From a virus (taxonomy: Duplodnaviria > Heunggongvirae > Uroviricota > Caudoviricetes): a DNA stretch of 16,061 bases. Every line of letters starts with the position of its first letter. Positions within the stretch are counted from its first letter, which is position 1. Where the stretch lies: positions 1 through 16,061 of the IMG/VR virus record IMGVR_UViG_2778261537_000017; one strand, 5' to 3'. The position numbers and the translations under genes were made by a program. This document shows, in pieces, positions 1 to 16,061 of this stretch. The notes beneath the pieces were generated by a model. The model was not told where the DNA came from. It was given only the letters and a program-made list of their open reading frames with translations, and made no database searches.

Positions 1-624
1 GCCGGTAAGTAAGCCTTGAGGAACTCGCTTGTCGGCTAGACATTGGGTTCCGCGAATTATGTTAATCAGAGGGCTTAGTAACGATGGTTCCTGGCGGGCC
101 TCAACTTCTCCAGCCATTGCCCTGATGTAGTCGGCGCTTGCAACGTTGTTATATTCCGTTGCGAAGCAGCATAACAACGACAGAACGTGCTCTGTCGTTA
201 TTTCGCTCCAGTTGATGTTGAAAAATTCATCGCCTTTTTTGTCGTGTTCGGAATCGAAGATGCTTTGGTGGAGGATGTATTTGCCGGATTCTTTGCGCGG
301 TAACTTGATCGCTTTCTGGCGTTCCAGCTCCTTGTAAATCTGCATTGCTTCAATTAGTACCGGCCTGCCGTTCATGAAGGGATCGCGCAACCTTACACGC
401 TGGCCAACTCGACCCGTAATAAAGCTGTTTTCCTCTTCCACCAGCACGATAAAACCCTTTTCCTCTTTTTCTCGCAATTCGCGCAGCAGCTGGAGTTCCA
501 TATCGCGGCGGCGTTCAGGGTAGCTGGTCCGCTCAGCCATTATCAGCTCATTGTTGATCCATGCGGCAGTCATTGACGCCGGTTTGCCGACGCTCATCGA
601 AACAACGCATATTTTCTTATCCAT
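1..624 (-). CDS. mat: Phage protein at the P1 mat position (downstream of ref); N-terminal 208 codons only, C-terminus lies beyond the window
   Basis: Minus-strand frame is open from the ATG at 624-622 down to position 1 (I checked every in-frame triplet; no stop). RBS AAGGGG lies about 7 nt upstream. Translation begins MDKKICVVSMSVGKPASMTAAWINNELI. Not in the ORF track because no stop falls inside the window. The mat assignment is by position only. Confidence 0.6.
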   Translation of the reverse strand, partial: MDKKICVVSMSVGKPASMTAAWINNELIMAERTSYPERRRDMELQLLRELREKEEKGFIVLVEEENSFITGRVGQRVRLRDPFMNGRPVLIEAMQIYKELERQKAIKLPRKESGKYILHQSIFDSEHDKKGDEFFNINWSEITTEHVLSLLCCFATEYNNVASADYIRAMAGEVEARQEPSLLSPLINIIRGTQCLADKRVPQGLLTG

Positions 625-813
625 AGCGCCCCTTATAAAAAAGAAAAGCCACCAGCGGCGGCTTAGCAATACAACTGAAGGTAGCGCCCGGTACTCAGAC
701 TGTGCCGTCCATGGAATATTTGAAAAGGGATCCATCCGTACCGGGCATGTGATGATTCTGACTGAAGTCACTTGTCAGTTGTCAATTATTTCAGATTAAA
801 AATAATATATTTA

Positions 814-1374: not shown

Positions 1375-1379
1375 ATGGC

Positions 1380-1405
1380 AAAAAAAAGGCGGCCTGATGG
1401 CCGCC
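1380..1405 (-). terminator. Intrinsic-terminator-like hairpin plus U8 in the ref leader, ending 5 nt before the ref ATG
   Basis: Plus strand is A8 (1380-1387) followed by GGCGGCC-TGAT-GGCCGCC (1388-1405). On the minus-strand RNA this reads GGCGGCCAUCAGGCCGCC UUUUUUUU GCCAU AUG. Confidence 0.5.
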
Positions 1406-1461
1406 AATGATGTCAAGGAGTTAAGTAATGGCAACGTCTTCGTAGTTGACAAAAACTGCGG

Positions 1462-1489
1462 CTCAATTATAGCAATCAATTAGAGCAAT
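1462..1489 (-). promoter_or_regulatory. Paired C1-repressor operator-like sites (Op2a/b-like) overlapping a TATAAT upstream of ref
   Basis: caatcaattagagcaat (1473-1489) matches the reverse complement of the P1 operator consensus ATTGCTCTAATAAATTT at 14/17; a weaker overlapping copy aattatagcaat lies at 1465-1476. The minus strand reads TTGCTATAATTGAG. Confidence 0.6.
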
Positions 1490-1595
1490 GGTAGAGATTT
1501 TGTTTATCGCGAATCACATTTTTTCACTTCAGTACCTGTGTGCTATACTCCTTCTTGATTGATTGGATGCGGAATACAAACCCGCTCTTTTGTGC

Positions 1596-1623
1596 AGCCT
1601 GGCTCCTTGCCAGGCTTTTTTTA
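1596..1623 (+). terminator. Plus-strand intrinsic terminator (8-bp stem, 5-nt loop, T7 tail)
   Basis: AGCCTGGC-TCCTT-GCCAGGCT followed by TTTTTTT. In the minus orientation the hairpin is followed by CACAAAAGAG, so it is effectively plus-strand specific. Confidence 0.5.
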
Positions 1624-1932
1624 TTTCATCATGGAAGCTGTTAATGCTTTGGACCTTGCTGAACTGATTGAGAGGGCTTTGTCAACGTGCCCCAAAAATT
1701 CGCCAAACTCAGACATCACTTTAGCAAAACCGCGCCGTGCTTCTTCCTCGGTGGCATTCATCACGAAATGTTCAGCACTACGCATACTTCTGACAGGGAA
1801 CGCAACGGATATTGAGTCAATATCAGGCATTCTATCGCTCAGCTTTACAGTGACAATGACGGCTGGCGACTGAATATTAGTGCTCACTGACAGCACTACA
1901 TATTTTCCGTCGATGTTGAAATTCTTTCTCAT
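1621..1932 (-). CDS. cra: Cra-like small protein (gene between cre and ref), 103 aa
   Basis: Complete ORF with ATG at 1932 and a GGTGA RBS. Sits where P1 has cra. Function assigned by position only. Confidence 0.6.
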   Translation of the reverse strand: MRKNFNIDGKYVVLSVSTNIQSPAVIVTVKLSDRMPDIDSISVAFPVRSMRSAEHFVMNATEEEARRGFAKVMSEFGEFLGHVDKALSISSARSKALTASMMK

Positions 1933-1948
1933 ATGTCACCATAAATAT

Positions 1949-1965
1949 CAAAGAATTAGAGCAAT
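1949..1965 (-). promoter_or_regulatory. C1 operator-like site between the cre stop and the cra start
   Basis: caaagaattagagcaat matches the reverse complement of the operator consensus at 13/17, with the AGAGCAAT core intact. Confidence 0.45.
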
Positions 1966-1982
1966 CATTTACGCGTTAATGG

Positions 1983-3014
1983 CTAATCGCCATCTTCCAG
2001 CAGGCGCACCATTGCCCCTGTTTCACTATCCAGGTTACGGATATAGTTCATGACAATATTTACGTTGGTCCAGCCACCAGCTTGCATGATCTCCGGTATT
2101 GAAACTCCGGCGCGGGCCATATCTCGCGCGGCTCCGACACGGGCACTGTGTCCAGACCAGGCCAGGTACCTCTGACCAGAGTCATCCTTAGCCCCGTAAA
2201 TCAATCGGTGAGTTGCTTCAAAAATCCCTTCCAGGGCGCGAGTTGATAGCTGGCTGGTGGATGATGGCGAGGCAACACCATTTTTTCTGACCCGGCAAAA
2301 CAAGTAGTTATTCGGATCATCAGCCACACCAGAGACGGAAATCCATCGCTCGACCAGTTTAGTTACCCCCAGGCTAAGTGCCTTCTCTACACCTGCGGTG
2401 CTAACCAGCGTTTTCGTTCTGCCAATATGGATTAACATTCTCCCACCGTCAGTACGTGAGATATCTTTAACCCTGATCCTGGCAATTTCGGCTATACGTA
2501 ACAGGGTGTTATAAGCAATCCCCAGAAATGCCAGATTCCGTATATCCTGGCAGCGATCGCTATTTCCCATGAGTGAACGAACCTGGTCGAAATCAGTGCG
2601 TTCGAACGCCAGCGCCTGTTTTGCACGCTCACCGGCATCAACGTTTTCTTTTCGGATCCGTCGCATGACCAGTGAAACAGCATTGCTGTCACTTGGTCGT
2701 GGCAGCCCGGACCGACGATGAAGCATATTTAGCTGGCCCAAATGTTGCTGGATAGTTTTCACTGCCAGACCGCGCGCCTGAAGATATAGAAGATAATCGC
2801 GAACATCTTCAGGTTCTGCGGGAAACCATTTCCGGTTATTCAACTTGCACCATGCCGCCCATGACCGGCAAACGGACAGAAGCATTTTCCAGGTATGCTC
2901 AGAAAACGCCTGGCGATCCCTGAACATGTCCATCAGGTTCTTGCGAACCTCATCACTCGTTGCATCGACCGGTAATGCAGGCAAATTTTGGTGTACGGTC
3001 AGTAAATTGGACAT
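1983..3014 (-). CDS. cre: Cre site-specific tyrosine recombinase, 343 aa
   Basis: Translation MSNLLTVHQNLPALPVDATSDEVRKNLMDMF... matches P1 Cre along its length as I recall it. Catalytic residues are in place (GHSARVGAAR, GGWTN, MNYIRN). loxP lies about 420 bp upstream. Confidence 0.97.
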   Translation of the reverse strand: MSNLLTVHQNLPALPVDATSDEVRKNLMDMFRDRQAFSEHTWKMLLSVCRSWAAWCKLNNRKWFPAEPEDVRDYLLYLQARGLAVKTIQQHLGQLNMLHRRSGLPRPSDSNAVSLVMRRIRKENVDAGERAKQALAFERTDFDQVRSLMGNSDRCQDIRNLAFLGIAYNTLLRIAEIARIRVKDISRTDGGRMLIHIGRTKTLVSTAGVEKALSLGVTKLVERWISVSGVADDPNNYLFCRVRKNGVASPSSTSQLSTRALEGIFEATHRLIYGAKDDSGQRYLAWSGHSARVGAARDMARAGVSIPEIMQAGGWTNVNIVMNYIRNLDSETGAMVRLLEDGD

Positions 3015-3021
3015 TTAACAC

Positions 3022-3243
3022 TCAGATAATGGTTTTAAGTAAAGTGTACAGGATCGGCTCTGCCTTTACCTGTTTATGGTTCTCGTCATAGAAACGCCAG
3101 CGACCGCGCGTGCGTTCTATTTTCTCTTCACCGCGCGATAATGACAGTTGACAACTATCACGATCAAACCCTTTTGCCCGCCAGTAACCACGGTTTTTCT
3201 CAAGCTCAATATGAGTGGACACTTTAGCAGCTGAATATCCCAT
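3022..3243 (-). CDS. Hypothetical 73-aa protein immediately upstream of cre
   Basis: Strong RBS (AGAGGTGAAAA then ATG at 3243). Its TGA stop lies 7 nt before the cre ATG. Basic protein (MGYSAAKVSTHIELEKNRGYWRAKGFDRDS...). I do not recall an annotated P1 gene here, so it may instead be non-coding cre promoter sequence. Confidence 0.4.
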   Translation of the reverse strand: MGYSAAKVSTHIELEKNRGYWRAKGFDRDSCQLSLSRGEEKIERTRGRWRFYDENHKQVKAEPILYTLLKTII

Positions 3244-3340
3244 TTTTCACCTCTGATTGATTGGTGGTGCTAAGTGCGCTACGCGAAATCTGGAGCACTA
3301 ACACTGCCAACATTTCGCAGATTTTACGTAGCGCAACCTT

Positions 3341-3413
3341 GATCAAATGATCAAGTGATCACTATTTGACCTGATAAGGTATTGAACTGTATGGATTTAC
3401 AGGTAAATTGATC
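3341..3413 (-). promoter_or_regulatory. Cre promoter region with clustered Dam (GATC) sites
   Basis: GATC at 3341, 3349 and 3357 (three within 20 bp) and at 3410, between loxP and cre. Consistent with the reported methylation-sensitive cre promoters in P1. Confidence 0.5.
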
Positions 3414-3432
3414 ATGTTCAATAACCCTTAAG

Positions 3433-3466
3433 ATAACTTCGTATAATGTATGCTATACGAAGTTAT
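3433..3466 (+). other. loxP recombination site (13-bp arm, 8-bp spacer, 13-bp arm)
   Basis: Exact ATAACTTCGTATA-ATGTATGC-TATACGAAGTTAT. Confidence 0.97.
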
Positions 3467-3509
3467 TAGGTCCGAAGAGGAGTTTACGTCCAGCTGCGCA
3501 TAAAAATCA

Positions 3510-3526
3510 AGAATTATTAGAGCAAT
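3510..3526 (-). promoter_or_regulatory. C1 operator (immC region)
   Basis: agaattattagagcaat matches the reverse complement of the operator consensus at 15/17. Confidence 0.6.
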
Positions 3527-3586
3527 AAATTTTGAGAGAAAAATCCCACTCCACCAGCCAAAAACTGGATTGTTTTTCATAGTTGT

Positions 3587-3613
3587 TTGACAATTGCTCT
3601 AATAAATTATAGT
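3587..3613 (+). promoter_or_regulatory. Promoter (TTGACA ... TATAGT) with an overlapping C1 operator, directed toward coi and c1
   Basis: TTGACA at 3587-3592 is followed directly by ATTGCTCTAATAAATTA (3593-3609; 16/17 to the operator consensus) and a TATAGT -10-like hexamer. Confidence 0.65.
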
Positions 3614-3847
3614 TTTGCCGCCGTTTCGTAATACGACTTTGGATTCACTATTTAATGTGTCTTCAGCGTTGTAGAGCGGCTCAGAAGGAAATGAGCAAAC
3701 AGGGAAACCTTATACAACGGCATTACAGCTATGCATTGCTCATCTTACACACAGCGCAATGTTGTTAGATTACCCCAGCATGGATCATGGGTGAAACAGT
3801 AGGTCAGAGCTTCAGGCTCTGTGTTGTCAATACAGTGAGGCATAATT

Positions 3848-4057
3848 ATGGCTTTCATTCCACCAACCATCGACGACGTTAGACATTGCTCTAACGCTTT
3901 ATCTGTAGACCCCGCCGAAACCGACGCTGCCCGCGCCATTGCTGAACACTACTCAAAGATATCCAATCAGGAGTACCGCATCACCCAAGACGACCTGGAT
4001 GATCTCACTGACACAATCGAATATCTCATGGCCACTAACCAGCCAGACTCACAATAA
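3848..4057 (+). CDS. coi: Coi, C1-repressor inactivator, 69 aa
   Basis: Complete 69-aa ORF with a GTGAGG RBS, immediately upstream of c1 and downstream of the operator-controlled promoter. Size and position match P1 coi. Confidence 0.8.
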   Translation: MAFIPPTIDDVRHCSNALSVDPAETDAARAIAEHYSKISNQEYRITQDDLDDLTDTIEYLMATNQPDSQ

Positions 4058-4073
4058 ATGCACTAATAAATCT
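4057..4073 (+). promoter_or_regulatory. C1 operator-like site overlapping the coi stop
   Basis: aatgcactaataaatct matches the operator consensus at 14/17. Confidence 0.45.
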
Positions 4074-4103
4074 ATTATTTTCGTTGGATCCTTCTATAAT
4101 GGT

Positions 4104-4144
4104 GGCCAACAACTCCCAGTGTAATCCGCTGTGAGTTGTTGGCC
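4104..4144 (+). other. Perfect 12-bp inverted repeat with a 17-nt loop in the c1 leader
   Basis: GGCCAACAACTC (4104-4115) and GAGTTGTTGGCC (4133-4144), preceded by TATAAT (4094-4099) and followed by the c1 RBS GGAGGAGG. Confidence 0.5.
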
Positions 4145-4167
4145 ATGTCAATTCTGGAGGAGGATCA

Positions 4168-5019
4168 ATGATAAATTATGTCTACGGCGAACAACTGTAC
4201 CAGGAGTTCGTCAGCTTCAGGGATCTCTTTCTAAAAAAAGCTGTTGCACGCGCCCAACACGTTGATGCCGCCAGCGACGGTCGTCCTGTTCGCCCGGTTG
4301 TCGTTCTGCCGTTCAAAGAAACAGACAGCATTCAGGCTGAAATTGATAAATGGACTTTAATGGCGCGGGAACTGGAACAGTACCCAGACCTCAATATCCC
4401 AAAGACTATTTTATATCCAGTGCCTAACATCCTTCGCGGTGTGCGTAAGGTTACGACTTATCAGACAGAAGCTGTGAACAGCGTCAACATGACCGCTGGC
4501 CGCATTATTCATCTGATTGATAAGGACATTCGCATCCAGAAAAGCGCGGGGATCAATGAGCACAGTGCGAAATACATAGAGAACCTGGAAGCAACAAAAG
4601 AGCTAATGAAGCAGTACCCGGAGGATGAAAAATTCCGTATGCGTGTACACGGCTTTAGCGAAACAATGCTGCGCGTCCACTACATTTCCAGTAGCCCTAA
4701 CTACAATGATGGTAAATCAGTTAGTTACCATGTGCCGCTGTGTGGTGTGTTTATCTGCGATGAAACTCTCCGTGATGGAATCATCATCAACGGTGAATTC
4801 GAGAAAGCAAAATTTAGCCTTTATGACTCTATAGAACCGATCATCTGCGACCGCTGGCCGCAGGCAAAAATATATCGCCTGGCAGATATTGAAAATGTAA
4901 AAAAACAAATTGCCATCACTCGCGAAGAGAAAAAGGTCAAATCAGCCGCATCAGTTACGCGCAGCCGTAACACTAAGAAGGGGCAGCCAGTAAACGACAA
5001 CCCCGAAAGCGCGCAATAG
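4168..5019 (+). CDS. c1: C1 repressor of lysogeny, 283 aa
   Basis: Complete ORF MINYVYGEQLYQEFVSF... with a strong GGAGGAGG RBS. Length and N-terminus match P1 C1 as recalled, and cognate operator sites are present in the window. Confidence 0.9.
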   Translation: MINYVYGEQLYQEFVSFRDLFLKKAVARAQHVDAASDGRPVRPVVVLPFKETDSIQAEIDKWTLMARELEQYPDLNIPKTILYPVPNILRGVRKVTTYQTEAVNSVNMTAGRIIHLIDKDIRIQKSAGINEHSAKYIENLEATKELMKQYPEDEKFRMRVHGFSETMLRVHYISSSPNYNDGKSVSYHVPLCGVFICDETLRDGIIINGEFEKAKFSLYDSIEPIICDRWPQAKIYRLADIENVKKQIAITREEKKVKSAASVTRSRNTKKGQPVNDNPESAQ

Positions 5020-5043
5020 TTTCTATCCGGCATGGTCAATGAG

Positions 5044-6528
5044 TTATTCATTAAGCCATGCCAGAGCTTCATCAACCTGCGCTTCGTCTTCGACGCTAAG
5101 CACTTCATCCTGGGGAACATAATCAGCCAGCATAGCGAAACAATATGTATCCCAATGGTCTGGTGAGTGCAGGTTGAGTTTTTTCTTCATATCCTCCTTA
5201 CTCATCACCTTCCATTGACCTGCGGAGTTAATCCCTACAGGGATTTTCGACGCTTCCTCAATAGTTTCATTACCCTTATCCAGTCTCATACGACCAGATT
5301 TTACGGCCTCTGCGGCTTGAACGTTGGCATAAGCACGTTTATCAAAGTACAGGCTCTTATCTTCACGGCTATGCATCTTTTTACCCCAGCGTATACGCTG
5401 TACGGTAATACCATAATACTCGTACATCAGATCCGCCGTTGCTTTACCCAGGCCATCGCCGTCTATCGCTATGGTGATATTGGGGAATCGCTCAGGATTA
5501 CATTCTGCGAAAATTTTGGCGGCAAGCTGCGTTTCTGTAACGTCTGTGTATTCCAGCATTCGATAGTTGATTACACGGCGTTTATTTCGCTGGCCGGACA
5601 CCATCATGATATTGATAACGGACTTATCCCGTCCCGTACCACCAGCAACGTCCACACATGCAAGCCAGCCCCATCCTTTTGCAATCTTGACTTTCCGCCG
5701 CGTTGCACGTTCAACCTCATCACGCCCAAGAAGGAAGCCATCCTGTGATTTAGGGAATAGGCCGCGTACCTTAATCATGTACATAGGGTTATCACGCCCG
5801 CCGTACTCCGCCAGCTTCATTTTGATAAATGCTGGCGTTACCAACGGTGATTCCTCACTGTTAAGCGTGATCGCCGTATAAACGCCATCAGGGTTACCAG
5901 GACGCTTGGCCAGTTTATGGTGTGTATCGTAGAAATAGCCGCTTGGGCGTGTAGGCTGTGACAGCAATAAGATGCGGTTATCCTGTCCGGTAAGAGCACC
6001 GGTGATGATACCGAAAGCTCTATCACTGACACCGGAGGCTTCATCGATAATATACAGAAGATGATCTGCGTGTTCACCGGCGAGAGCTTCTTCACTTCCC
6101 AGACGAAAGCCCTTCGGTACTACAGTCCATACACCTTTACCAGTAATCTCATAGAAAGCGGTTTCTGTCAGAACAAAATAATCAGCAAGCCATGGGAAAC
6201 GGCTGGTGGCAGTAGCCCAGTTTATCTTGATGTACTTGAATATACCGGTCATTACCTGCTGAATTTTGTTCGCAACGATAATGGCACGGGCACCTGGATA
6301 CATGATTATGAACAACATGATCATGATAGAAGTCATGTCTGATTTCCCGGTACCGTGACCAGACGAAACAGATGTCTTGCTACCCTGTTCCTGCACAGAC
6401 TCAATAATCAGATCCTGCTGCCAGGTAGGTGTTTTGCCGAACAAAACATCAGCGGCAGCAATCCAGTCATAACGATATAGCGCCACCAGCTCGCGCCAAC
6501 GTGGATCTGTTACGCAACTTCTGGCCAT
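5044..6528 (-). CDS. pacB: PacB, terminase large subunit, 494 aa
   Basis: Walker A-like SSGHGTGKS and Walker B-like [10 protein letters not shown]. Its ATG overlaps the pacA stop (ATGA at 6526-6530). Confidence 0.88.
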
Positions 6529-7721
6529 TAATCATCATCCCCGTATAGCTTGCGGGTAACTTCTTCGTCTTCCTCCTCGTCTTCGTCCAGGTCTTGTTCC
6601 AGCCATGGGTCGTTTGATACACCTTCAGTATCAACATCTCCATAACCGCCTGTATCAACGATATCGGCGATTTCTTCCCTACGCTGCTCAATCCACAATG
6701 CGGCATCGGCGCGGCGGTTGGCGGCCCGTTCTCGCGCAACTTTGTCCAGATCTTCAAGAGAAGGGCCACCGACGGCTGTTTGCCTTTCCTCATCATCGGT
6801 ATTGGTCTTAGGAGCACGCAGATCGGCTTTGATTTGCTCCAGCATCAGGGGCGGTACTTTCCCTCCATGCGCCTCGATGAATTCAGCTGCCTCCAGCACT
6901 GACCAGTTGTTTTCACGCTTTCGTTCGTATGCCAGCTTAACAATGCCAGCTTGCCCCATAGACAAAGCGTGCTTTTCCGCCTCCCGGCTTTCTTTTCGAT
7001 AGTTATTCCGGATGCTGTAAATGGTGTTGATCAGGCTGCTTATCTGCGCGGAACAGCTGTTTAGCATGCTCGCGATACGGTATTCAGGCGGAGTTCCTTC
7101 ATCATCGTCTTTTTGCTGATCGCGCATTTCCTGAACCAAGCGAATACACGTATCCCTGGCGTTCTCCAGCATAAGGAGATGAGAGAGAGACTTTTCCAGA
7201 AGAGTGGTTTCCAGAACATCAGCCCCGGACCGACGCAACATAGCGCGCGCGGCCTTCCGCGCTTCAACGTTATCTATCAGGTAATCGCCAGCTTCGAATT
7301 CAAAGCGTTCACCATCATCATCCAGGGTGTCGCGTTCCAGGCGATCACGTAAGGTCCGGTGGGCGCGGGTGATCACGTCATGATCATCAGAACGATCATT
7401 TATGCGCTTATTCTGGCGCTTCGCGTTCTCGACTGCGGCACTGACAACAGCATTAACTCTTTGTTTTTCAGCCATTTCAGCCACAATGTGATCACCTGCA
7501 CGTTGATCATTAGCGTGATCAATGATCATGCTTTTTAGTGGTTTTCTGACAGGCTTATTTGGCTTACGGCTGTCCGCTGTTCCGGTGTCTTCTTTGAATG
7601 CACGGAGATAACGACGTGCGGTGTTTGGGTTGAGATTAAACTCGGCGGCATATTGTGCGATGGTGTAACCACCATCTCGCGCCAGGCGAGCAAAATTCTT
7701 CTTGTGATCGTCCCAGGTCAC
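6528..7721 (-). CDS. pacA: PacA, terminase small / pac-recognition subunit, 397 aa; GTG start
   Basis: The pac site lies inside its 5' third. Acidic C-terminal tail. Start is GTG at 7721 with RBS AAGGAAG; the next in-frame triplet upstream is a stop. Confidence 0.85.
7343..7528. other. pac packaging site: two clusters of Dam-methylatable hexamers flanking the cleavage region
   Basis: TGATCA at 7370 and 7381 plus GATC at 7343 and 7394 on one side; TGATCA at 7489, 7504, 7516 and 7523 on the other; about 90 bp between the clusters. Confidence 0.75.
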
Positions 7722-7807
7722 TTATGCTTCCTTTCGTATAAAACTCTTTTTGACGCGAGGGTAACGAAAGTCACATGTCAAAAGGCCCGGAACGGGCAAG
7801 CAATCAA

Positions 7808-8260
7808 TCAGATACGTGCGGATGTGGCATTACCGTAATGACGGTGCTGACGGACCACCTTATTGAAAAGTTGACGCGCCATCACCCAAGGCTGGTGCTC
7901 CCGGCGTTCCTTTTCGTCCTGCGTCATATAGAGTTCGTTCTGGAGTTTTTCATCAAACCGGCGCGGAGCGCGGCTGCGGCGAAAGAATTCAGGATTCAGA
8001 GAGTGGATCTGAAATCTACGTGGGCGTGTACTGTCATCAATCAAAACAGACGAATACTTAGACACAGCGATAGCCTTTAAGCGCAGATAAACATCGCGCT
8101 TATCGACATCCAGATGCGGGTATTCCTTTTCAAGAATTGCTGCGAGTTCTTTCGCTGATAGAAGAGATTTAGTGCGGATCATGTAATCCGCAATCTCGTA
8201 CGATGTTATTCGTGAGTGATTTATTTCCATGAAGTGGCGTCCCTGCCAGTTAAGTAACAT
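7808..8260 (-). CDS. lpa: Lpa-like late promoter activator, 150 aa (alternative ATG at 8230 would give 140 aa)
   Basis: Complete ORF directly upstream of pacA, matching the P1 order lpa-pacA-pacB. Assigned by position and size; I cannot verify the sequence. Confidence 0.6.
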   Translation of the reverse strand: MLLNWQGRHFMEINHSRITSYEIADYMIRTKSLLSAKELAAILEKEYPHLDVDKRDVYLRLKAIAVSKYSSVLIDDSTRPRRFQIHSLNPEFFRRSRAPRRFDEKLQNELYMTQDEKERREHQPWVMARQLFNKVVRQHRHYGNATSARI

Positions 8261-8330
8261 CCTGTCACCTACTGATTAGCCCATGTCAACTAATCAACGT
8301 GGAATATAATACCCTCGATTAAAGAAATAG

Positions 8331-8347
8331 CAATACATTATAGCAAT
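8331..8347 (-). promoter_or_regulatory. Operator-like element overlapping a TATAAT upstream of lpa
   Basis: Minus strand reads AAATTGCTATAATGTATTGCTATTTC. The 17-mer ATTGCTATAATGTATTG matches the C1 operator consensus at 13/17, and the -10 hexamer is embedded in it. Confidence 0.4.
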
Positions 8348-8348
8348 T

Positions 8349-9392
8349 TTATCTAACGCTCGACGAGTGACTTGTGATAGCGCCGACTCCAAGCGCGTAA
8401 TCAAAGAACAATCGTTGATGCATCGCCAGCCTACCGTGCGTCTTCTCCCAATTATCGCGGTCACGCTCAATATCACGCTGGCATGACTGGCACAGAGGAA
8501 TAGCATAAATGTCATGCGCGCATAATCGACTATGACGAACGATATAAGGCGTAATGTGAGCGCCAGCTCCCGCAGCTCCACAGCCACAGCATGGACGGGA
8601 AGCCACAAAGTCCATGTACTCGGGCAATTTTAGCGATTGAAGTTTTGGTATTTTGAAATGCGCCATACCTGGGTCGGAGTCAACATCCACAGGGCATACT
8701 TTTGCACGCATCGGCGCGGCGCGTTCTTCCATCATCTGAACATATGCTGTAGCGCGATCGTCATACGGGCGAATATCCGCCTCTTTCAGAGGTCCGCTAT
8801 CCTGCGGAGTAGCCTTCATCTTATTTATTGATATGCGGCAGACTTCTTCCGGCATCAGGTGCATCATGTTGCGCATGAAAGCCCACCAGCACAGCTCCTG
8901 AATACTTAAATCATGGCTATTTGAAAGGCCCATTTCCTGACGGGCGACATCCAGTATCCAGTTAACGCGATTATTGTGCAGCGTTTCTTTCAGCTCATTA
9001 AAACCACGCATCCGGTAATGGTTATCGTGATGCCAGCACAACAACACCGCGCTATTGTCTCGTTCAGCGTGGACAATATGGTTGTCACACCAACTACGAT
9101 CTGCGGCCTGGCATTGACCCTCTTTCCTACGCAACCACACCACCAGCGCGTCAATTCCACCAATACGGCGAAACAGTTCATCGCTGTTAAAAAACGGCTG
9201 CAACGCCTCATTTGTTGCCATGGTTTGCTCGGTAACAACGAGGCCGTCTTCCATGTGCTCGATTAACTCACGCGGCACCGGCTCCATGATAAATTTACGG
9301 CCAGCCTCCACCAGCTTTCTGACCTCCTGATCCACTTTGAACGTGGCGAGGCCAAGCTCTTTCTGTACAAAGGGAGTAATTACGGCTTTCAC
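8349..9392 (-). CDS. pdcB: Post-doc protein B-like, 347 aa, with a C-terminal Cys-rich (zinc-ribbon-like) region; GTG start
   Basis: Complete ORF, GTG at 9392 with RBS AAAGGTG (alternative ATG at 9287). C-terminal region [40 protein letters not shown]. Sits between doc and lpa as in P1. Confidence 0.65.
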
Positions 9393-9419
9393 ATCACACC
9401 TTTAATCACTGATTGGGCT

Positions 9420-9599
9420 TTATCTGCTGCCCGGCATTCTCTGTTTAAGCACAACCATTTCCTGACGGCATAACACAGCAATAGCGGTCCTGACTCCAAT
9501 TTGCTTACCAACCAGGTATTGCTTTACCTTGCGGCGACTCACGCCATCAAGAAGCATCTTTAACGCTTCACGGGACAATTTGTTGTATTTGCGTGCCAT
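9420..9599 (-). CDS. pdcA: Small basic protein (59 aa) immediately after doc (post-doc protein A position)
   Basis: The ATG at 9599 (MARKYNKLSREALK...) lies 5 nt past the doc stop. The track ORF start at 9620 would overlap doc. Confidence 0.45.
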   Translation of the reverse strand: MARKYNKLSREALKMLLDGVSRRKVKQYLVGKQIGVRTAIAVLCRQEMVVLKQRMPGSR

Positions 9600-9603
9600 T
9601 AAT

Positions 9604-9984
9604 CTACTCCGCAGAACCATACAATCTACGTAACGTGTCGGCGACAGAAGATACAGATATCTCGCCAGTCGCAGCGCCTACAGTAAGGTCTGCCAGTTCA
9701 GGTGAATCAAATACCTGCACCCCGTTACGGCGTAGAAATAGCAGCGCACTGTTTAGCGCGGTACGCTTATTGGCATCATTGAATATATGCCCTCTCGCTG
9801 TAGCCACCAGGTAGGTGGCGGAGACTTCGAAAAGGTCGGTGATCTCTTCGTAGGCAACTCTGGCCTGAACTCTCCCGATAATGGCCTCTGCCCTACCCGG
9901 ATCTGACATTCCCGGCAGGCCGCCGTAGCGGCTTATATTCGCATCATGAAGCGCAATAAGTTCTTCCGGTGATATATGCCTCAT
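9604..9984 (-). CDS. doc: Doc toxin (Fic-fold kinase that targets EF-Tu), 126 aa
   Basis: Fic-type motif HIFNDANKR. Size matches P1 Doc. Start overlaps the phd stop. Confidence 0.95.
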
Positions 9985-10205
9985 TATCGGTTAACCAGTT
10001 CCTTGTTGGTGGAGTCCAGGGTGTCAAACAGGGATGCAAATTCAGCATCCAGCGCCGCTTTTTTGTAGGCTTCGAAAGTAGCCTTGCTGACAATTACTGC
10101 TGGCTCACGGCCTCTGCGGGTGATTTCAACCTCTTCCCCGGCTTCAACATTGTTGAGCACTTCAGAAAGGTTGCCACGCGCGGTACGGAAGTTAATGGAT
10201 TGCAT
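9984..10205 (-). CDS. phd: Phd antitoxin, 73 aa
   Basis: [49 protein letters not shown]... from the ATG at 10205 (the track ORF begins two codons earlier at a GTG). TAATG-type overlap with the doc start. Confidence 0.95.
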
Positions 10206-10212
10206 AAACACC

Positions 10213-10240
10213 TCGTGTACTCGTTATGTGTACACAATTA
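10213..10240 (-). promoter_or_regulatory. phd-doc promoter/operator region with GTGTAC-type palindromes
   Basis: cGTGTACtcgttatGTGTACACaa lies between the humD stop and the phd start. Confidence 0.55.
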
Positions 10241-10277
10241 TAAACTTCACAGGCATAAAGCACCAGCACTTTGCAGC

Positions 10278-10667
10278 TTAAATAACCGGACAATCATCAA
10301 ATTCCCCACTTCGGGCATCATTGATGACATGAGTGATCACACCAAAAACAGCATTACTGCCCGTGTATCCATCGTCATCTACTGGTAACGCCTCTTTCTT
10401 CCCGGTGCTTAAATCCTCCAGGTGCTGGCGCGGATACTTCCTGTATCTCTTTATGCGATATTCACCCTCCATAGCGCACACAAGCAGAGAACCATCAACC
10501 GGAGTAAGCGAGGAATCAACCACCAGCAAAGCACCCTGCAATATTCCCTCACGGTGATGGCTATCAGCTGCCCGCATGAAGTAGGTTGCTGATGGATGCC
10601 TGATTAGTTGCTGATCAAGAGAAATTCGGCTTTCAACATAATCCGCCGCAGGAGAAGGGAAGCCCAT
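10278..10667 (-). CDS. humD: HumD, UmuD'-like translesion-synthesis accessory protein, 129 aa
   Basis: Complete ORF with RBS GAGGTGA. Size and position (directly upstream of phd/doc) match P1 humD. Confidence 0.88.
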   Translation of the reverse strand: MGFPSPAADYVESRISLDQQLIRHPSATYFMRAADSHHREGILQGALLVVDSSLTPVDGSLLVCAMEGEYRIKRYRKYPRQHLEDLSTGKKEALPVDDDGYTGSNAVFGVITHVINDARSGEFDDCPVI

Positions 10668-10686
10668 AGCGTTTTCACCTCAATAA

Positions 10687-10706
10687 TACTGTTCATTTAT
10701 ACAGTA
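10687..10706 (-). promoter_or_regulatory. LexA (SOS) box upstream of humD
   Basis: tactgttcatttatacagta has the CTGT-N8-ACAG architecture and matches the E. coli LexA consensus TACTGTATATATATACAGTA at about 16/20. It lies about 20 nt upstream of the humD RBS. Confidence 0.7.
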
Positions 10707-10841
10707 TACATTAAAGAGACACCTTTGGTGCAAACGCGTTACGTACATCAACCACCGCTGATGATTTTGTGCTCTTTGCTACTATTCATCACCAACGGAT
10801 CAGCGTAACCTCGTTGCCAATCAGTTAATAAGGAATTAGCT

Positions 10842-11426
10842 ATGCCTAATCGCATTCCTCTCGATCCTATATTGCCCAAAAATTTTGACTGCACTCCTAA
10901 CGAGAAACGCTCTAAAGCTCAGCTGGACGCCTGGTGGGACCATCCATATGGGGTTACACAACCTGACGGGAAAATTGTAGTTTATTGTCTGAATGGTGGG
11001 GCGTGGGACCGTCCATCCGTGCTTTGTTTGGCAGATAACTATGATGAAGCCTGTGAACTTGCCGAAAGACAGCAGGCAAGCTGGGTAAAAACACGGTCTG
11101 AACCGACATTCATGTTTTCAAAAGAACCGCCATTTATACTGGCGAGGATGCCGCAGCGACCGGATCATCAACAAGAAATTGTTGCTGAATTTTCCTCTAG
11201 GGATGAGATGAATCTCTTCTCATTAAAGCAGGAAGAAAGGGATCGCGTCGAAGTGTCTCCAACTCTCGACCACAACCGGATGAACCTGGCCCAGCTCGCC
11301 TGGTACAGCAAAGAATTAGAGATGTCTATTGCCCGGCTTGAAAACGAAAAAGCCGCTATCCAAGTCCAGCACGAAGTAGTTCTGAACCGGATTAGAGAAA
11401 TGCAAAACGATAACAGGGGATTTTGA
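10842..11426 (+). CDS. Hypothetical protein, 194 aa (first gene of a coupled two-gene operon)
   Basis: Complete ORF, AGGA RBS 7 nt upstream. No motif I recognise. The C-terminal third is rich in charged residues with heptad-like spacing (possible coiled coil). No long hydrophobic segment. Confidence 0.7.
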   Translation: MPNRIPLDPILPKNFDCTPNEKRSKAQLDAWWDHPYGVTQPDGKIVVYCLNGGAWDRPSVLCLADNYDEACELAERQQASWVKTRSEPTFMFSKEPPFILARMPQRPDHQQEIVAEFSSRDEMNLFSLKQEERDRVEVSPTLDHNRMNLAQLAWYSKELEMSIARLENEKAAIQVQHEVVLNRIREMQNDNRGF

Positions 11427-11783
11427 ATGGCTAAAATCGAGTACCATCGCGATCGCGGTAATTACCTGGAAATATACGATCATGAATCTCTTAACGATAT
11501 CAACGATGCGTTATATGAATACTGTGAAAAAACGAGCATCACAGATGCACCTGATGCATTTGTCGAGCTGCCGGTATATCTCCGCGACATCTATGCAATA
11601 CGAACACCGCCCGTATCGGTGATTCACATTGGCTATGTCCGCCTGTCCATCGAAGAAGATGAAGATCGTTATATCGTGCGCCACTATACATTGGACAGAA
11701 AAGAACTTCCTAATGAATGGAACATGAGTAATTTCTACAACGGTGAATATGGCTTAAAATCCGCTAATAATTTACGGTCATAA
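11427..11783 (+). CDS. Hypothetical acidic protein, 118 aa (second gene, translationally coupled)
   Basis: Its ATG directly follows the upstream TGA (TGAATG). AGGGGA RBS lies inside the end of the upstream gene. No recognisable motif. Confidence 0.7.
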   Translation: MAKIEYHRDRGNYLEIYDHESLNDINDALYEYCEKTSITDAPDAFVELPVYLRDIYAIRTPPVSVIHIGYVRLSIEEDEDRYIVRHYTLDRKELPNEWNMSNFYNGEYGLKSANNLRS

Positions 11784-12336
11784 TCTATACAGGCATGTAT
11801 AACAACAACGAGCCTATTAGCTGTCAACAACGTTATTTTCTCAAATAAGAAAAAGCAGAAAGCAAATTGTTTAAGGTCACAAATTGTGGCCTTGATGGAG
11901 GAGGGAGGCTTATTGGCTATGGCTAAAAATCAAATTAGACACTTCATGTTGCTGTAGCTCATCAAGATCCGAGGCCACAAAACCTTTTCCGAAAAACTTC
12001 ACAAGTAACTCACTAGCCGCATCATTGTCACCTATTACACGAAAGTCATACGGCAACGTCGCAAGTTGACGATGTAATCCTGCTGAGAAAGTCGAATCTA
12101 ACAGCGCCCAGAATTCCCACCGCAGGATAATACTCGCCTCTTAACACTGTATATATGTTGTTACGATATGTTTTTCTGTCTCTAAAAAAAGATGTTAATA
12201 GAATGCTAACCATTGAAGGGGATAAAAATATACAATTCCAACAAACGTTATTTTTAACAATTTTTTTCTTTGCGTTGACTTTCCCGGACACCTTGTCTGA
12301 CCTAAGGTGCGCGAAAGCCACTTTTTCCTTCCTGAG

Positions 12337-12357
12337 TTATCCACAAAGTTATGCACT
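12337..12357 (+). promoter_or_regulatory. Tandem DnaA boxes in the nrdA regulatory region
   Basis: TTATCCACA (12337-12345) is a perfect DnaA box; TTATGCACT (12349-12357) matches 8/9. Confidence 0.65.
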
Positions 12358-12374
12358 TGCAAGAGGGCCATTTT

Positions 12375-12420
12375 CACACTATCTTGCAGTGAATCCCAAA
12401 CATACCCCCTATATATAGTG
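12375..12420 (+). promoter_or_regulatory. Two NrdR-box-like palindromes over the nrdA promoter
   Basis: CACACTATCTTGCAGTG (12375-12391) and CCCCTATATATAGTG (12406-12420) match the NrdR box pattern as recalled, spaced about 31 bp apart. Confidence 0.6.
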
Positions 12421-12498
12421 TTCTAAGCAGCTTCCCGTACTACAGGTAGTCTGCATGAAACTATTGCGGAAAGAATTCCAAAAACAGGTACGACATAC

Positions 12499-14784
12499 AT
12501 GAATCAGAATCTGCTGGTGACAAAGCGCGACGGTAGCACAGAGCGCATCAATCTCGACAAAATCCATCGCGTTCTGGATTGGGCGGCAGAAGGACTGCAT
12601 AACGTTTCGATTTCCCAGGTCGAGCTGCGCTCCCACATTCAGTTTTATGACGGTATCAAGACCTCTGACATCCACGAAACCATTATCAAGGCGGCCGCAG
12701 ACCTGATCTCCCGTGATGCGCCGGATTATCAGTATCTCGCCGCGCGCCTGGCGATCTTCCACCTGCGTAAAAAAGCCTACGGCCAGTTTGAGCCGCCTGC
12801 GCTGTACGACCACGTGGTGAAAATGGTCGAGATGGGCAAATACGATAATCATCTGCTGGAAGACTACACGGAAGAAGAGTTCAAGCAGATGGACACGTTT
12901 ATCGATCACGACCGTGATATGACCTTCTCTTATGCTGCCGTTAAGCAGCTGGAAGGCAAATATCTGGTACAGAACCGCGTGACCGGCGAAATCTACGAAA
13001 GCGCCCAGTTCCTTTATATTCTGGTTGCCGCGTGCCTGTTCTCGAACTACCCGCGTGAAACGCGCCTGCAATATGTGAAGCGTTTTTACGACGCGGTTTC
13101 CACATTTAAAATTTCGCTGCCGACGCCAATCATGTCCGGCGTGCGTACCCCGACTCGTCAGTTCAGCTCCTGCGTACTGATCGAGTGCGGTGACAGTCTG
13201 GATTCCATCAACGCTACCTCCAGCGCGATTGTGAAATACGTTTCCCAGCGTGCCGGGATCGGCATCAACGCCGGGCGTATTCGTGCGCTGGGTAGCCCGA
13301 TTCGCGGTGGTGAAGCGTTCCATACCGGCTGTATTCCGTTCTACAAACATTTCCAGACAGCGGTGAAATCCTGCTCTCAGGGCGGCGTGCGCGGCGGTGC
13401 GGCAACGCTGTTCTACCCGATGTGGCATCTGGAAGTGGAAAGCCTGCTGGTGTTGAAAAACAACCGTGGTGTGGAAGGCAACCGCGTGCGCCATATGGAC
13501 TACGGGGTACAGATCAACAAACTGATGTATACCCGCCTGCTGAAAGGTGAAGATATCACCCTGTTCAGCCCGTCCGACGTACCGGGGCTGTACGACGCAT
13601 TCTTCGCCGATCAGGAAGAGTTTGAACGCCTGTATACCAAATATGAGAAAGACGACAGCATCCGCAAGCAGCGTGTGAAAGCCGTTGAGCTGTTCTCGCT
13701 GATGATGCAGGAACGTGCGTCTACCGGTCGTATCTATATTCAGAACGTTGACCACTGCAATACCCATAGCCCGTTTGATCCGGCCATCGCGCCAGTGCGT
13801 CAGTCTAACCTGTGCCTGGAGATAGCCCTGCCGACCAAACCGCTGAACGACGTCAACGACGAGAACGGTGAAATCGCGCTGTGTACGCTGTCTGCTTTCA
13901 ACCTGGGCGCAATTAATAGCCTGGATGAACTGGAAGAGCTGGCAATTCTGGCGGTTCGTGCACTTGACGCGCTGCTGGATTATCAGGATTACCCGATCCC
14001 GGCCGCCAAACGTGGAGCGATGGGTCGTCGAACGCTGGGTATTGGTGTGATCAACTTCGCTTACTACCTGGCGAAGCACGGTGTGCGTTACTCCGACGGC
14101 AGCGCCAACAACCTGACGCATAAAACCTTCGAAGCGATTCAGTATTACCTGCTGAAAGCGTCTAACGAGCTGGCAAAAGAGCAAGGCGCGTGCCCGTGGT
14201 TTAACGAAACCACTTACGCGAAAGGGATCCTGCCGATCGATACCTATAAGAAAGATCTGGATACCATCGCTAATGAGCCGCTTCATTACGACTGGGAAGC
14301 ATTGCGTGAATCAATCAAAACGCACGGCCTGCGTAACTCCACGCTTTCTGCCCTGATGCCGTCAGAGACTTCTTCACAGATCTCTAACGCCACTAACGGT
14401 ATTGAACCGCCGCGCGGTTACGTCAGCATCAAAGCGTCGAAAGACGGTATTTTGCGCCAGGTGGTGCCGGACTACGAGCACCTGCACGACGCCTATGAGC
14501 TGCTGTGGGAAATGCCGGGTAACGATGGCTACCTGCAACTGGTAGGTATCATGCAGAAATTTATCGATCAGTCGATCTCTGCTAACACCAACTACGATCC
14601 GTCACGTTTCCCGTCAGGAAAAGTGCCGATGCAGCAGTTGCTGAAAGACCTGCTCACCGCCTACAAATTCGGGGTCAAAACGCTGTATTATCAGAACACC
14701 CGTGACGGCGCTGAAGACGCGCAGGACGATCTGGTACCGTCAATCCAGGACGATGGCTGCGAAAGCGGCGCATGTAAGATCTGA
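12499..14784 (+). CDS. nrdA: Ribonucleoside-diphosphate reductase 1, alpha subunit, 761 aa
   Basis: Complete [36 protein letters not shown]..., essentially the E. coli NrdA sequence as recalled. ATP-cone N-terminus; C-terminal ...CESGACKI. Confidence 0.98.
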
Positions 14785-14793
14785 TATTGAGAT

Positions 14794-14908
14794 GCCGGAT
14801 GCAGCGTGAACGCCTTATCCGGCCTACGGCTCGGATTTGTAGGCCTGATAAGACGCGTCAGCGTCGCATCAGGCACAGGATGCGGCGTAAAATGCCTTAT
14901 CCGGCATT
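14794..14908. repeat. REP/BIME cluster (three REP units in alternating orientation) between nrdA and nrdB
   Basis: GCCGGATGCAGCGTGAACGCCTTATCCGGCCTAC (14794-14827), the inverted copy GTAGGCCTGATAAGACGCG...CGCATCAGGC (14839-14874), and GATGCGGCGTAAAATGCCTTATCCGGC (about 14878-14906). Confidence 0.85.
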
Positions 14909-14930
14909 AAACTCCCAACAGGACACACTC

Positions 14931-16061
14931 ATGGCATATACCACCTTTTCACAGACGAAAAATGATCAGCTCAAAGAACCGATGTTCTTTGGTCAGCCGG
15001 TCAACGTGGCTCGCTACGATCAGCAAAAATATGACATCTTCGAAAAGCTGATCGAAAAGCAGCTCTCTTTCTTCTGGCGTCCGGAAGAAGTTGACGTCTC
15101 CCGCGACCGTATCGATTACCAGGCACTGCCTGAACACGAAAAACACATCTTTATCAGCAACCTGAAATATCAGACGCTGCTGGATTCCATTCAGGGCCGT
15201 AGCCCGAACGTGGCACTGCTGCCGCTTATTTCTATTCCGGAACTGGAGACCTGGGTCGAAACCTGGGCGTTCTCAGAAACGATTCATTCCCGTTCCTATA
15301 CTCATATCATTCGTAATATCGTTAACGATCCGTCTGTTGTGTTTGACGATATCGTCACCAACGAGCAGATCCAGAAACGTGCGGAAGGGATCTCCAGCTA
15401 TTACGATGAGCTGATCGAAATGACCAGCTACTGGCATCTGCTGGGCGAAGGTACCCACACCGTTAACGGTAAAACTGTGACCGTTAGCCTGCGCGAGCTG
15501 AAGAAAAAACTGTATCTCTGCCTGATGAGCGTTAACGCGCTGGAAGCGATTCGTTTCTACGTCAGCTTTGCTTGTTCCTTCGCATTTGCAGAACGCGAAT
15601 TGATGGAAGGCAACGCCAAAATTATTCGCCTGATTGCCCGCGACGAAGCCCTGCACCTGACCGGCACCCAGCATATGCTGAATCTGCTGCGCAGCGGCGC
15701 GGACGATCCTGAGATGGCGGAAATTGCCGAAGAGTGTAAGCAGGAGTGCTATGACCTGTTTGTTCAGGCAGCTCAACAGGAGAAAGACTGGGCGGATTAT
15801 CTGTTCCGCGACGGTTCGATGATTGGTCTGAATAAAGACATTCTCTGCCAGTACGTTGAATACATCACCAATATCCGTATGCAGGCAGTCGGTTTGGATC
15901 TGCCGTTCCAGACGCGCTCCAACCCGATCCCATGGATCAACACCTGGCTGGTGTCTGATAACGTGCAGGTTGCTCCGCAGGAAGTGGAAGTCAGTTCTTA
16001 TCTGGTCGGGCAGATTGACGCGGAAGTGGACACCGACGATTTGAGTAACTTCCAACTCTGA
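14931..16061 (+). CDS. nrdB: Ribonucleoside-diphosphate reductase 1, beta subunit, 376 aa
   Basis: True start is the ATG at 14931 ([13 protein letters not shown]...) with an AGGA RBS. The track ORF from 14787 is an in-frame read-through of the REP cluster. The stop is the last codon of the window. Confidence 0.97.

What the first reader, a model, noticed from the sequence alone, without database searches (positions are those of the whole stretch)
10668..12498. P1-like backbone abuts chromosomal nrdAB with no visible integration signature
P1-type elements normally replicate as plasmids. Here the P1 block, intact across loxP, is followed within about 1.7 kb by the native-looking nrdA control region and nrdAB with REP elements. 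Between humD and the DnaA boxes I see no integrase, IS element, att-like direct repeat or tRNA. Integration at lox is excluded because loxP is flanked by P1 DNA on both sides. The window may therefore capture an unusual chromosomal insertion of a P1-like fragment, a plasmid that captured chromosomal DNA, or an assembly join.
Basis: inference. Interest (0 to 1): 0.7.

Follow-up and report, generated by a model that had tools for sequence, protein, structure and literature searches.

The report
Plasmid–chromosome join inside a shared promoter
The "unexplained" DNA between the phage-plasmid and nrdA is ordinary P7-type P1 sequence, and the true join lies inside a ~130-base copy of the nrdA promoter that P1-family plasmids are already known to carry. 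It is therefore a join through shared homology (real recombination or an assembly chimera), not a new kind of integration.

Summary
The P1-like block does not end at humD. P7-type P1-family DNA runs on to window 12375, at 99-100% identity to many phage-plasmids. Chromosomal identity starts at 12247 and is 100% from 12275 to 16061. The two overlap over 129 nt (12247-12375). This overlap is the "nrdA-like promoter" with DnaA boxes, already annotated in P1 records M95666 and NC_005856.

The switch from plasmid-type to chromosome-type bases falls inside that homology. The last plasmid-type base is 12274, the first chromosome-only base is 12376, and a marker at 12303 is chromosome-type. So an integration signature does exist: shared homology. 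loxP, IS elements, tRNAs and flanking repeats are excluded.

The window is very probably the first 16 kb of a 47-kb draft contig, NMHQ01000041.1. No complete E. coli genome, plasmid, phage or metagenome record searched has this junction. One other draft contig (4.2 kb) encodes the same hybrid.

Without reads I cannot separate a real RecA-type crossover (about 0.48) from a chimeric contig through the repeat (about 0.40). Either way the finding is ordinary in kind. Interest is low.

The parts
1..624 (-). mat-like gene, cut 18 nt before its stop. Window position 1 is a contig start in five public assemblies.
   Evidence: The 208-aa cut product is on record on 5 contigs that all begin at this position. 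One of them, NMHQ01000041.1 (47,063 bp), is 100% identical to window 1-10624.
1983..3014 (-). cre (343 aa)
   Evidence: PF00589; annotated as site-specific integrase in pEND_Eco12053-2.
3433..3466 (-). loxP, an exact 34-nt match flanked by P1 DNA on both sides
   Evidence: 0 mismatches; 0 matches expected by chance.
10278..10667 (-). humD
   Evidence: PHROG UmuD-like, E = 4e-55.
10687..10706 (.). LexA box TACTGTTCATTTATACAGTA between humD and upf94.2
   Evidence: Sequence read. It occupies the same position as the LexA site annotated in P1 and P7.
10842..11426 (+). upf94.2 (P7 name); the equivalent of P1 lxr
   Evidence: The DNA is 96.6% identical to P1 through phd-humD-lxr.
11427..11783 (+). 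upf93.6 (P7 name), a P7-type module gene
   Evidence: phrog_5797, E = 4e-77.
11784..12246 (.). P7-type plasmid DNA with no confident gene. P7 carries IS903 inserted in this stretch and annotates upf91.7 at window 12046-12321(-).
12247..12375 (+). The 129-nt homology shared by P7-type plasmids and the chromosomal nrdA promoter; this is the P1-family 'nrdA-like promoter'. It contains DnaA boxes at 12337-12345 (TTATCCACA) and 12349-12357 (TTATGCACT) and the -35 hexamer TTGCAA at 12357-12362.
   Evidence: The role of the nrdAB promoter DnaA boxes is described in PMC8203912.
12275..12302 (.). The 28-nt interval in which the sequence switches parent. 12274 is the last plasmid-type base. 12303 (T) is chromosome-type, where 28 of 28 fetched P7-type loci have G.
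   Evidence: Caveat: one IMG/VR plasmid piece carries T in a plasmid context, so the switch could lie anywhere in 12275-12375.
12376..12498 (+). Chromosome-only part of the nrdA promoter and leader. The -10 hexamer TATCTT is at 12380-12385.
   Evidence: 100% identical to chromosome NZ_CP132979.1 from 12275 onward.
12499..14784 (+). nrdA
14785..14930 (.). REP/BIME copies in the nrdA-nrdB spacer
   Evidence: Sequence read. This part of the window is repeated about 8 times per genome, against once for 11900-12750.
14931..16061 (+). nrdB; the window ends on its stop codon

Best explanation
A P7-type P1-family phage-plasmid and the E. coli chromosome were joined by a homologous (RecA-type) crossover. 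The crossover lies inside the ~129-nt nrdA-promoter segment that P1-family elements carry.

The window shows the junction 'plasmid-left / shared block / nrdAB'. The product is either a cointegrate (plasmid inserted just upstream of nrdA) or a plasmid derivative that carries nrdAB. The hybrid promoter keeps the DnaA boxes, the -35 and -10 hexamers and the leader, so the essential nrdAB operon should still be expressed.

Shown: the homology, the hybrid base pattern, and the exclusion of lox, IS and tRNA routes. Inferred: that the exchange happened in cells rather than in an assembler, and the topology of the product.
For: - The plasmid match ends at 12375-12382 and the chromosome match starts at 12244-12247, so the two overlap.
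- The fine map shows plasmid-type bases up to 12274, the chromosome-type T at 12303, and chromosome-only sequence from 12376.
- All 28 P7-type loci fetched, and the best complete plasmids, carry G at 12303.
- A second record of the same hybrid exists. WP_211489573.1 is a partial protein of 65 aa that equals window 12203-12397. It sits on a separate 4,172-bp E. coli contig that runs 22-24 nt past the shared block. A de Bruijn graph built with words longer than about 30 nt needs reads that physically link the plasmid-type bases to the T.
- The block has exchanged sequence in the past. Its 101-nt core is 100/101 identical between P7-type plasmids and E. coli, but only about 77-81% identical between P7-type and P1, whose flanks are 94-97% identical.
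- One plasmid piece carries the chromosomal T.
- Chromosomally integrated P1-like elements are known, and their cause is unexplained (PMC10879196).
Against: - The source is very probably a 47-kb contig of a draft assembly, and no read evidence is available.
- None of 5,426 complete E. coli genomes has the junction, although roughly 80-90 of them carry this P7-type region.
- The junction is also absent from PLSDB, INPHARED, GTDB representatives, JGI metagenomes and IMG/VR.
- A repeat shared by two replicons is exactly where chimeric contigs form.
- The T at 12303 is not a strict chromosome marker.
- The second hybrid contig stops just after the block, which suggests an ambiguous assembly graph.
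- The reciprocal junction was not found. The one valid scan was; one search was invalid.
Confidence: 0.48

Rival explanations
1. Assembly chimera. The strain carries a normal autonomous P7-type plasmid and a normal chromosome. The assembler, or a contig-merging or polishing step, walked from the plasmid into the chromosome through the 101-129-nt shared block. The T at 12303 then comes from bubble popping, majority consensus, or a plasmid variant that already has T.
For: - The source is a draft contig that starts at a recurrent contig break and joins 12.3 kb of plasmid to about 34.7 kb of chromosome.
- The junction is absent from every closed genome and curated collection searched.
- The join lies exactly in a repeat shared by two replicons.
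- A plasmid with T exists, which makes a perfect 101-nt repeat possible.
- The second hybrid contig ends 22-24 nt beyond the block, as at a graph node.
Against: - With G in the plasmid, as in 28 of 28 fetched loci, the longest exact repeat is 72 nt. A graph with words of 31-72 nt would produce a chimera carrying G, not T.
- Assemblers usually break at such repeats rather than misjoin them.
- The same hybrid turns up in two separate contig records.
Confidence: 0.4
2. A plasmid that captured chromosomal DNA (a 'P1-prime'), co-existing with an intact chromosome. It would form by homologous entry at the nrdA-like promoter followed by an aberrant exit elsewhere. This is a special case of the in vivo reading, listed separately because it matches the reader's second alternative. 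Its probability is part of the 0.48 given to the in vivo reading, not additional to it.
For: The 4,172-bp hybrid contig ends 22-24 nt after the block. That is what is expected if the chromosomal sequence to the right has two different left-hand contexts in that genome (inference).
Against: - No plasmid record in PLSDB or in the complete genomes carries the junction.
- At least 34.7 kb of chromosome follows in the source contig, which would push a ~98-kb P1-type genome beyond its headful size.
- The second junction has not been seen.
Confidence: 0.12
3. Integration by a dedicated or illegitimate route with no homology (Cre/lox, an IS element, a tRNA-targeting integrase, or end joining), as implied by 'no visible integration signature'.
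For: None was found. cre is present in the window.
Against: - loxP is intact and lies 8.8 kb from the join.
- There is no IS element, tRNA or direct repeat at the join.
- The breakpoint falls within 101 nt that are 100/101 identical in the two parents.
Confidence: 0.02

Closest known systems
P1 'nrdA-like promoter' with DnaA box (GenBank M95666 features; NC_005856 misc_feature '94 pct identical to E. coli DNA region containing two predicted DnaA boxes')
   Same: It occupies the same position in the P1-family map, to the right of humD-lxr and to the left of upfN/upfM/pmgV. It has the same DnaA boxes and -35 hexamer, and the same right-hand end of homology inside the promoter spacer.
   Different: The P7-type copy in the window is longer and much closer to E. 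coli: 129 nt in all, with a 101-nt core at 100/101. In P1 the well-matched part is 56 nt at about 94%, and the whole block is about 79% identical.
Phage P7 (AF503408), region humD - upf94.2 - upf93.6 - upf91.7/upf91.6
   Same: Window 10278-12375 is collinear with this region and 99.2% identical. P7 Upf91.6 is the plasmid's version of the ypaB-like ORF inside the shared block.
   Different: P7 has IS903 inserted in the non-coding stretch and the window does not. In P7 the block is followed by plasmid DNA, not by nrdA.
Chromosomally integrated P1-like prophages (Pfeifer & Rocha 2024, PMC10879196)
   Same: These are P1-group elements found in chromosomes with no dedicated integration module. The authors state that the cause of integration remains to be clarified.
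   Different: Those cases lie next to resident prophages or recombinase genes. This one lies at the nrdA promoter with a visible homology patch, and it is unverified.
Plasmid-chromosome cointegrates formed by homologous recombination (for example Hfr formation through shared IS copies; P1/P7 integrative suppression).
   Same: A single crossover between a short sequence shared by a low-copy plasmid and the chromosome.
   Different: Here the shared sequence is a captured host promoter fragment of about 0.1 kb, not an IS element of about 1 kb.
Repeat-induced chimeric contigs in short-read assemblies
   Same: A junction inside a sequence shared by two replicons, seen only in draft contigs.
   Different: The hybrid base pattern (plasmid-type bases 29 nt from a chromosome-type T) is not what a graph built with words longer than 30 nt would give from the usual G-type plasmid.

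Membership tests
P1-family (Punavirus) phage-plasmid, P7-type right-hand region | Collinear, near-identical backbone including cre-loxP-c1-pacAB-lpa-pdcB-doc-phd-humD | tested here: met
   96-100% identity to many P1-like plasmids over window 1-12375, with an exact loxP.
P1-family (Punavirus) phage-plasmid, P7-type right-hand region | The stretch 10668-12375 (LexA box, upf94.2, upf93.6, nrdA-like promoter) is present in P7 and its relatives | tested here: met
E. coli chromosomal nrdAB operon | Promoter with DnaA boxes, nrdA, REP-containing spacer and nrdB, identical to chromosomes | tested here: met
   Window 12275-16061 is 100% identical to NZ_CP132979.1, and 5,416 genomes cover at least 80% of 12000-16061.
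Cre/lox site-specific integration | Junction at loxP, giving a hybrid lox site | tested here: not met
   loxP is intact at 3433-3466, flanked by P1 DNA and 8.8 kb from the join.
IS-mediated cointegrate or transposition | An IS copy at the junction, with target-site duplication | tested here: not met
   there is no transposase ORF or IS end at 11784-12498. The IS903 of P7 is absent.
Integrase-mediated insertion at a tRNA/att site | A tRNA or att core repeat at the junction | tested here: not met
Homologous-recombination cointegrate | The junction lies in a sequence shared by both parents, with a hybrid pattern of parent-specific bases | tested here: met
Homologous-recombination cointegrate | A reciprocal junction at the other end of the inserted element | tested here: inconclusive
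   Nothing was found in JGI metagenomes. The GTDB scan was invalid because the spacer was mistyped. The source assembly could not be read beyond 10.6 kb. A protein of the reciprocal type (YpaB L23F) exists once, on an unrelated 271-bp contig.
Homologous-recombination cointegrate | Physical continuity in single molecules (spanning reads, PCR) | not testable with these tools
   No read data are available.
Assembly chimera | The junction lies in a repeat shared by two replicons and is seen only in draft contigs | tested here: met
Assembly chimera | Reads support only the parental junctions | not testable with these tools
   No read data are available.

The most novel reading that the evidence does not exclude
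The captured nrdA-promoter fragment conserved in P1-family phage-plasmids acts as a portable homology patch. It would let these otherwise extrachromosomal prophages dock by RecA-dependent recombination next to nrdAB, and leave again. That would explain some of the chromosomally integrated P1-like elements whose origin is unexplained. The window and the second hybrid contig would be the first sequence-level examples.
Probability: 0.1. Interest if true: 0.55.

Novelty: new member of a known kind. Interest (0 to 1): 0.25.

Why it matters
If the junction is real, it is a clear example of how a plasmid prophage with no chromosomal att site can enter the chromosome: through about 100 nt of captured host promoter. 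It would give a concrete mechanism for a class of integrated P1-like elements whose origin a recent survey left open (PMC10879196).

If the junction is a chimera, it is a useful warning. The nrdA-like block of P1/P7-type plasmids can link plasmid and chromosome contigs in draft E. coli assemblies, which would create false 'integrated prophages' or false 'plasmid-borne nrdAB'.

In both cases the elements involved are already known, and nothing points to a new type of system.

Tried and rejected
- **Cre/lox, IS, tRNA/att and direct-repeat routes.** All rejected.
- **Known structured RNAs.** None in the window at Rfam gathering thresholds.
- **Promoter and terminator scan of 10600-12560.** It found nothing above shuffled expectation for promoters and did not flag the nrdA promoter, which scores 8 of 12.
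- **Looking for the junction elsewhere.** There was no record in the complete E. coli genomes, PLSDB, phages, GTDB representatives, JGI metagenomes or IMG/VR.
- **Reciprocal junction.** None in JGI metagenomes.
- **Exact look-ups of three hypothetical junction-spanning ORFs.** None is on record.
- **Tracing the source contig through common window proteins** (Upf93.6, NrdA, Cre, Upf94.2, PdcB). All failed, because only the longest contigs are read. The gene cut at the window's left end did find it.
- **Literature searches.** No paper was found on a P1-nrdA junction or on the source assembly. Lobocka et al. 2004 could not be opened.
- **The T at 12303 as proof of a crossover in the 28-nt interval.** I first read it this way and then weakened that reading, after finding a plasmid piece with T in a plasmid context.

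Full report
**1. What the window is.**
A whole-window search against 5,426 complete E. coli genomes returned P1-like phage-plasmids covering window 1-12382 at 96-100% identity. No record covered more than 77% of the window. The best hit is pEND_Eco12053-2 (NZ_CP126930.1). Its annotation reads ref, cre, c1, pacB, pacA, lpa, a DUF968 protein (pdcB), pdcA, doc, phd and humD, followed by a 'DNA-binding protein' and a hypothetical protein.

Window 12000-16061 matched essentially every chromosome from window 12244 onward. The annotated genes there are ypaB, nrdA, nrdB and yfaE. The plasmid match therefore ends after the chromosome match begins.

**2.
Against the phage collection, window 10600-12382 is 99.2-99.3% identical to P7, to Salmonella phage SJ46 and to several 'P1' isolates. 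P1 proper matches only part of it.

P7's annotation gives humD, a LexA site, upf94.2, upf93.6, an IS903 insertion that is absent here, and upf91.7/upf91.6. P1 has lxr, hot and upfO in the same place. Both window ORFs hit phage protein families end to end. upf94.2 corresponds to P1 lxr, with 96.6% DNA identity through phd-humD-lxr. The LexA box is at 10687-10706.

**3. The shared block.**
A three-way alignment and a finer one with eight plasmids, five chromosomes and P1 show that P7-type plasmids carry a copy of the chromosomal nrdA promoter region spanning window 12247-12375.

- The left 28 nt of the block differ at four bases and one indel.
- The 101-nt core (12275-12375) differs at one position only, 12303, which is G in plasmids and T in chromosomes.
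- The block holds the two DnaA boxes (12337-12345 and 12349-12357) and the -35 hexamer. It ends four bases before the -10 hexamer.
- The nrdAB promoter and its DnaA boxes are well studied (PMC8203912).

This homology is already on record for P1. M95666 annotates an 'nrdA-like promoter' and a 'dnaA box'. NC_005856 notes 94% identity to an E. coli region with two predicted DnaA boxes.

**4. Where the sequence switches parent.**
Window 928-12375 differs from pEND_Eco12053-2 at a single base, the T at 12303. Window 12275-16061 is 100% identical to the chromosome of strain ARS-C101. The window carries plasmid-type bases through 12274, chromosome-type T at 12303, and chromosome-only sequence from 12376.

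All 28 P7-type loci fetched carry G with the plasmid-type left side, and none carries T. The best complete plasmids all show at least one mismatch to the window over 12100-12375. Taken at face value, the exchange lies in the 28 nt at 12275-12302.

There is a caveat. One IMG/VR plasmid piece (L060) has the plasmid-left side, T, and the plasmid-right side. T is therefore not a strict chromosome marker, and the exchange may lie anywhere in the 101-nt core.

**5. Other routes are excluded.**
loxP is intact at 3433-3466. The window has no tRNA. No IS element or transposase lies at the join. No direct repeats flank the join; the repeats found in the window are C1-operator-like sites and chance pairs. 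No Rfam family matches.

**6. Where the window comes from.**
The gene cut by the window's left edge gives a 208-aa product that is on record on five contigs. All five start at window position 1. One of them is NMHQ01000041.1 of GCA_002511735.1, 47,063 bp long, and it is 100% identical to window 1-10624.

The window is therefore very probably the first 16,061 nt of that draft contig. The contig would consist of 12.3 kb of plasmid DNA followed by about 34.7 kb of chromosome. I could not read the contig past 10.6 kb, nor any other contig of that assembly.

**7. Is the junction seen elsewhere?**
It is not in any complete E. coli genome (0 of 5,426), although about 80-90 of them carry this P7-type region. 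It is not in PLSDB, the phage collection, GTDB representatives, JGI metagenomes or IMG/VR.

It does appear once more. WP_211489573.1 (P0183) is a partial 65-aa protein identical to the translation of window 12203-12397. It has the plasmid-type start, the Leu encoded by the T allele, and the chromosomal end 'SHYLAVNP'. It sits on a single 4,172-bp E. coli contig that stops 22-24 nt beyond the shared block. I could not fetch that contig.

The reciprocal-type protein (YpaB L23F) exists once, on a 271-bp contig labelled Salmonella. The reciprocal DNA junction was not found in JGI metagenomes. My GTDB scan for it was invalid.

**8. Real or artefact?**
For a real crossover:
- The base pattern is hybrid.
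- G is constant in the plasmids sampled, so a graph with words of 31-72 nt should have produced a chimera carrying G.
- A second, separate contig record carries the same hybrid.
- The block has exchanged with chromosomes before. P7-type versus E. coli is 100/101 in the core, while P7-type versus P1 is only about 77-81%, inside flanks that are 94-97% identical. A T-carrying plasmid also exists.

For an artefact:
- Only draft contigs show the junction.
- It lies exactly in a repeat shared by two replicons.
- The source contig begins at a recurrent contig break.
- The second hybrid contig ends right after the block, as at a graph node.
- Low word sizes, bubble popping or consensus polishing can yield the T.

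By rough reasoning, both a fixed crossover at a 0.1-kb homology and a misjoin at this repeat are rare, and rare to a similar degree. I put the in vivo reading at about 0.48, which includes a plasmid that captured nrdAB. I put the chimera at about 0.40. I treat the question as undecidable without reads.

**9. Comparison with what is known, and novelty.**
All components are known: P7-type backbone, the P1-family nrdA-like promoter, and chromosomal nrdAB. Homologous cointegration of plasmids is textbook biology. Integrated P1-like prophages have been reported with their cause left open (PMC10879196).

If real, this is a new instance of a known kind, with an unusually legible mechanism. If not, it is an assembly artefact worth flagging. 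In neither case is it a new type of integration. The feature that made the finding look strange, the absence of any signature, does not hold.

Noticed in passing
window 11083-11115 (inside upf94.2); also window 246-278 (inside mat): A 33-nt stretch of upf94.2 matches, at 100%, features annotated as CRISPR in about 1,000 complete E. coli chromosomes (1,018 chromosomal places). A second 33-nt CRISPR match lies in the mat gene. These appear to be host spacers against P1/P7-type plasmids. The PAM and array type were not checked.
   Followed up: no
window 12247-12375 compared with P1 (L003 2617-2753): The nrdA-like block is only about 77-81% identical between P1 and P7-type plasmids, whereas the flanking backbone is 94-97% identical. 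The block seems to have been overwritten in one lineage, possibly by gene conversion from a host chromosome.
   Followed up: partly
L060 (IMGVR_UViG_2778261693_000004), positions 5116-5244: This is a P7-type plasmid piece whose nrdA-like block carries the chromosomal T at the marker position while keeping plasmid DNA on both sides.
   Followed up: partly
window position 1: Five contigs from different assemblies and assemblers start at exactly this nucleotide, 18 nt inside the 3' end of mat and next to a very AT-rich stretch. Two of them are only 96% identical to the window. The cause of this recurrent break is unknown.
   Followed up: partly
window 16061: The window ends exactly on the last base of the nrdB stop codon, which is also the first base of yfaE. 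The source contig goes on for about 31 kb, so this looks like a cut made at a gene end.
   Followed up: no
window 853-927: The window has about 75 nt in ref that pEND_Eco12053-2 lacks. The window's Ref is the full 186 aa, and the plasmid's copy is the shortened one.
   Followed up: partly
L009, L010, L013, L014, L015; L032, L033: Draft contigs of 0.2-0.4 Mb carry P1-like genes, so they are cointegrates, integrated copies or misjoins. L010 and L033 have IS1 copies beside the P1 genes. None is joined at the nrdA-like block.
   Followed up: no
PLSDB NZ_CP051662.1 (148 kb), positions 80621-81125: This is a plasmid record with an nrdA that is 94% identical to the window's. Several PLSDB 'plasmids' of 1.4-4.9 Mb that match nrdA are evidently chromosomes.
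   Followed up: no
protein P0152 (WP_302184608.1), on a 271-bp contig labelled Salmonella enterica: This YpaB has the plasmid-type Phe23 but an E. coli chromosome-type C-terminus. That is the pattern expected at a reciprocal junction or after a conversion patch.
   Followed up: no
window 799-822/4058-4081, 1474-1492, 3503-3526/3593-3616: Repeats containing ATTGCTCTAATAAATT look like C1 operator sites around ref, cre, loxP and c1.
   Followed up: no
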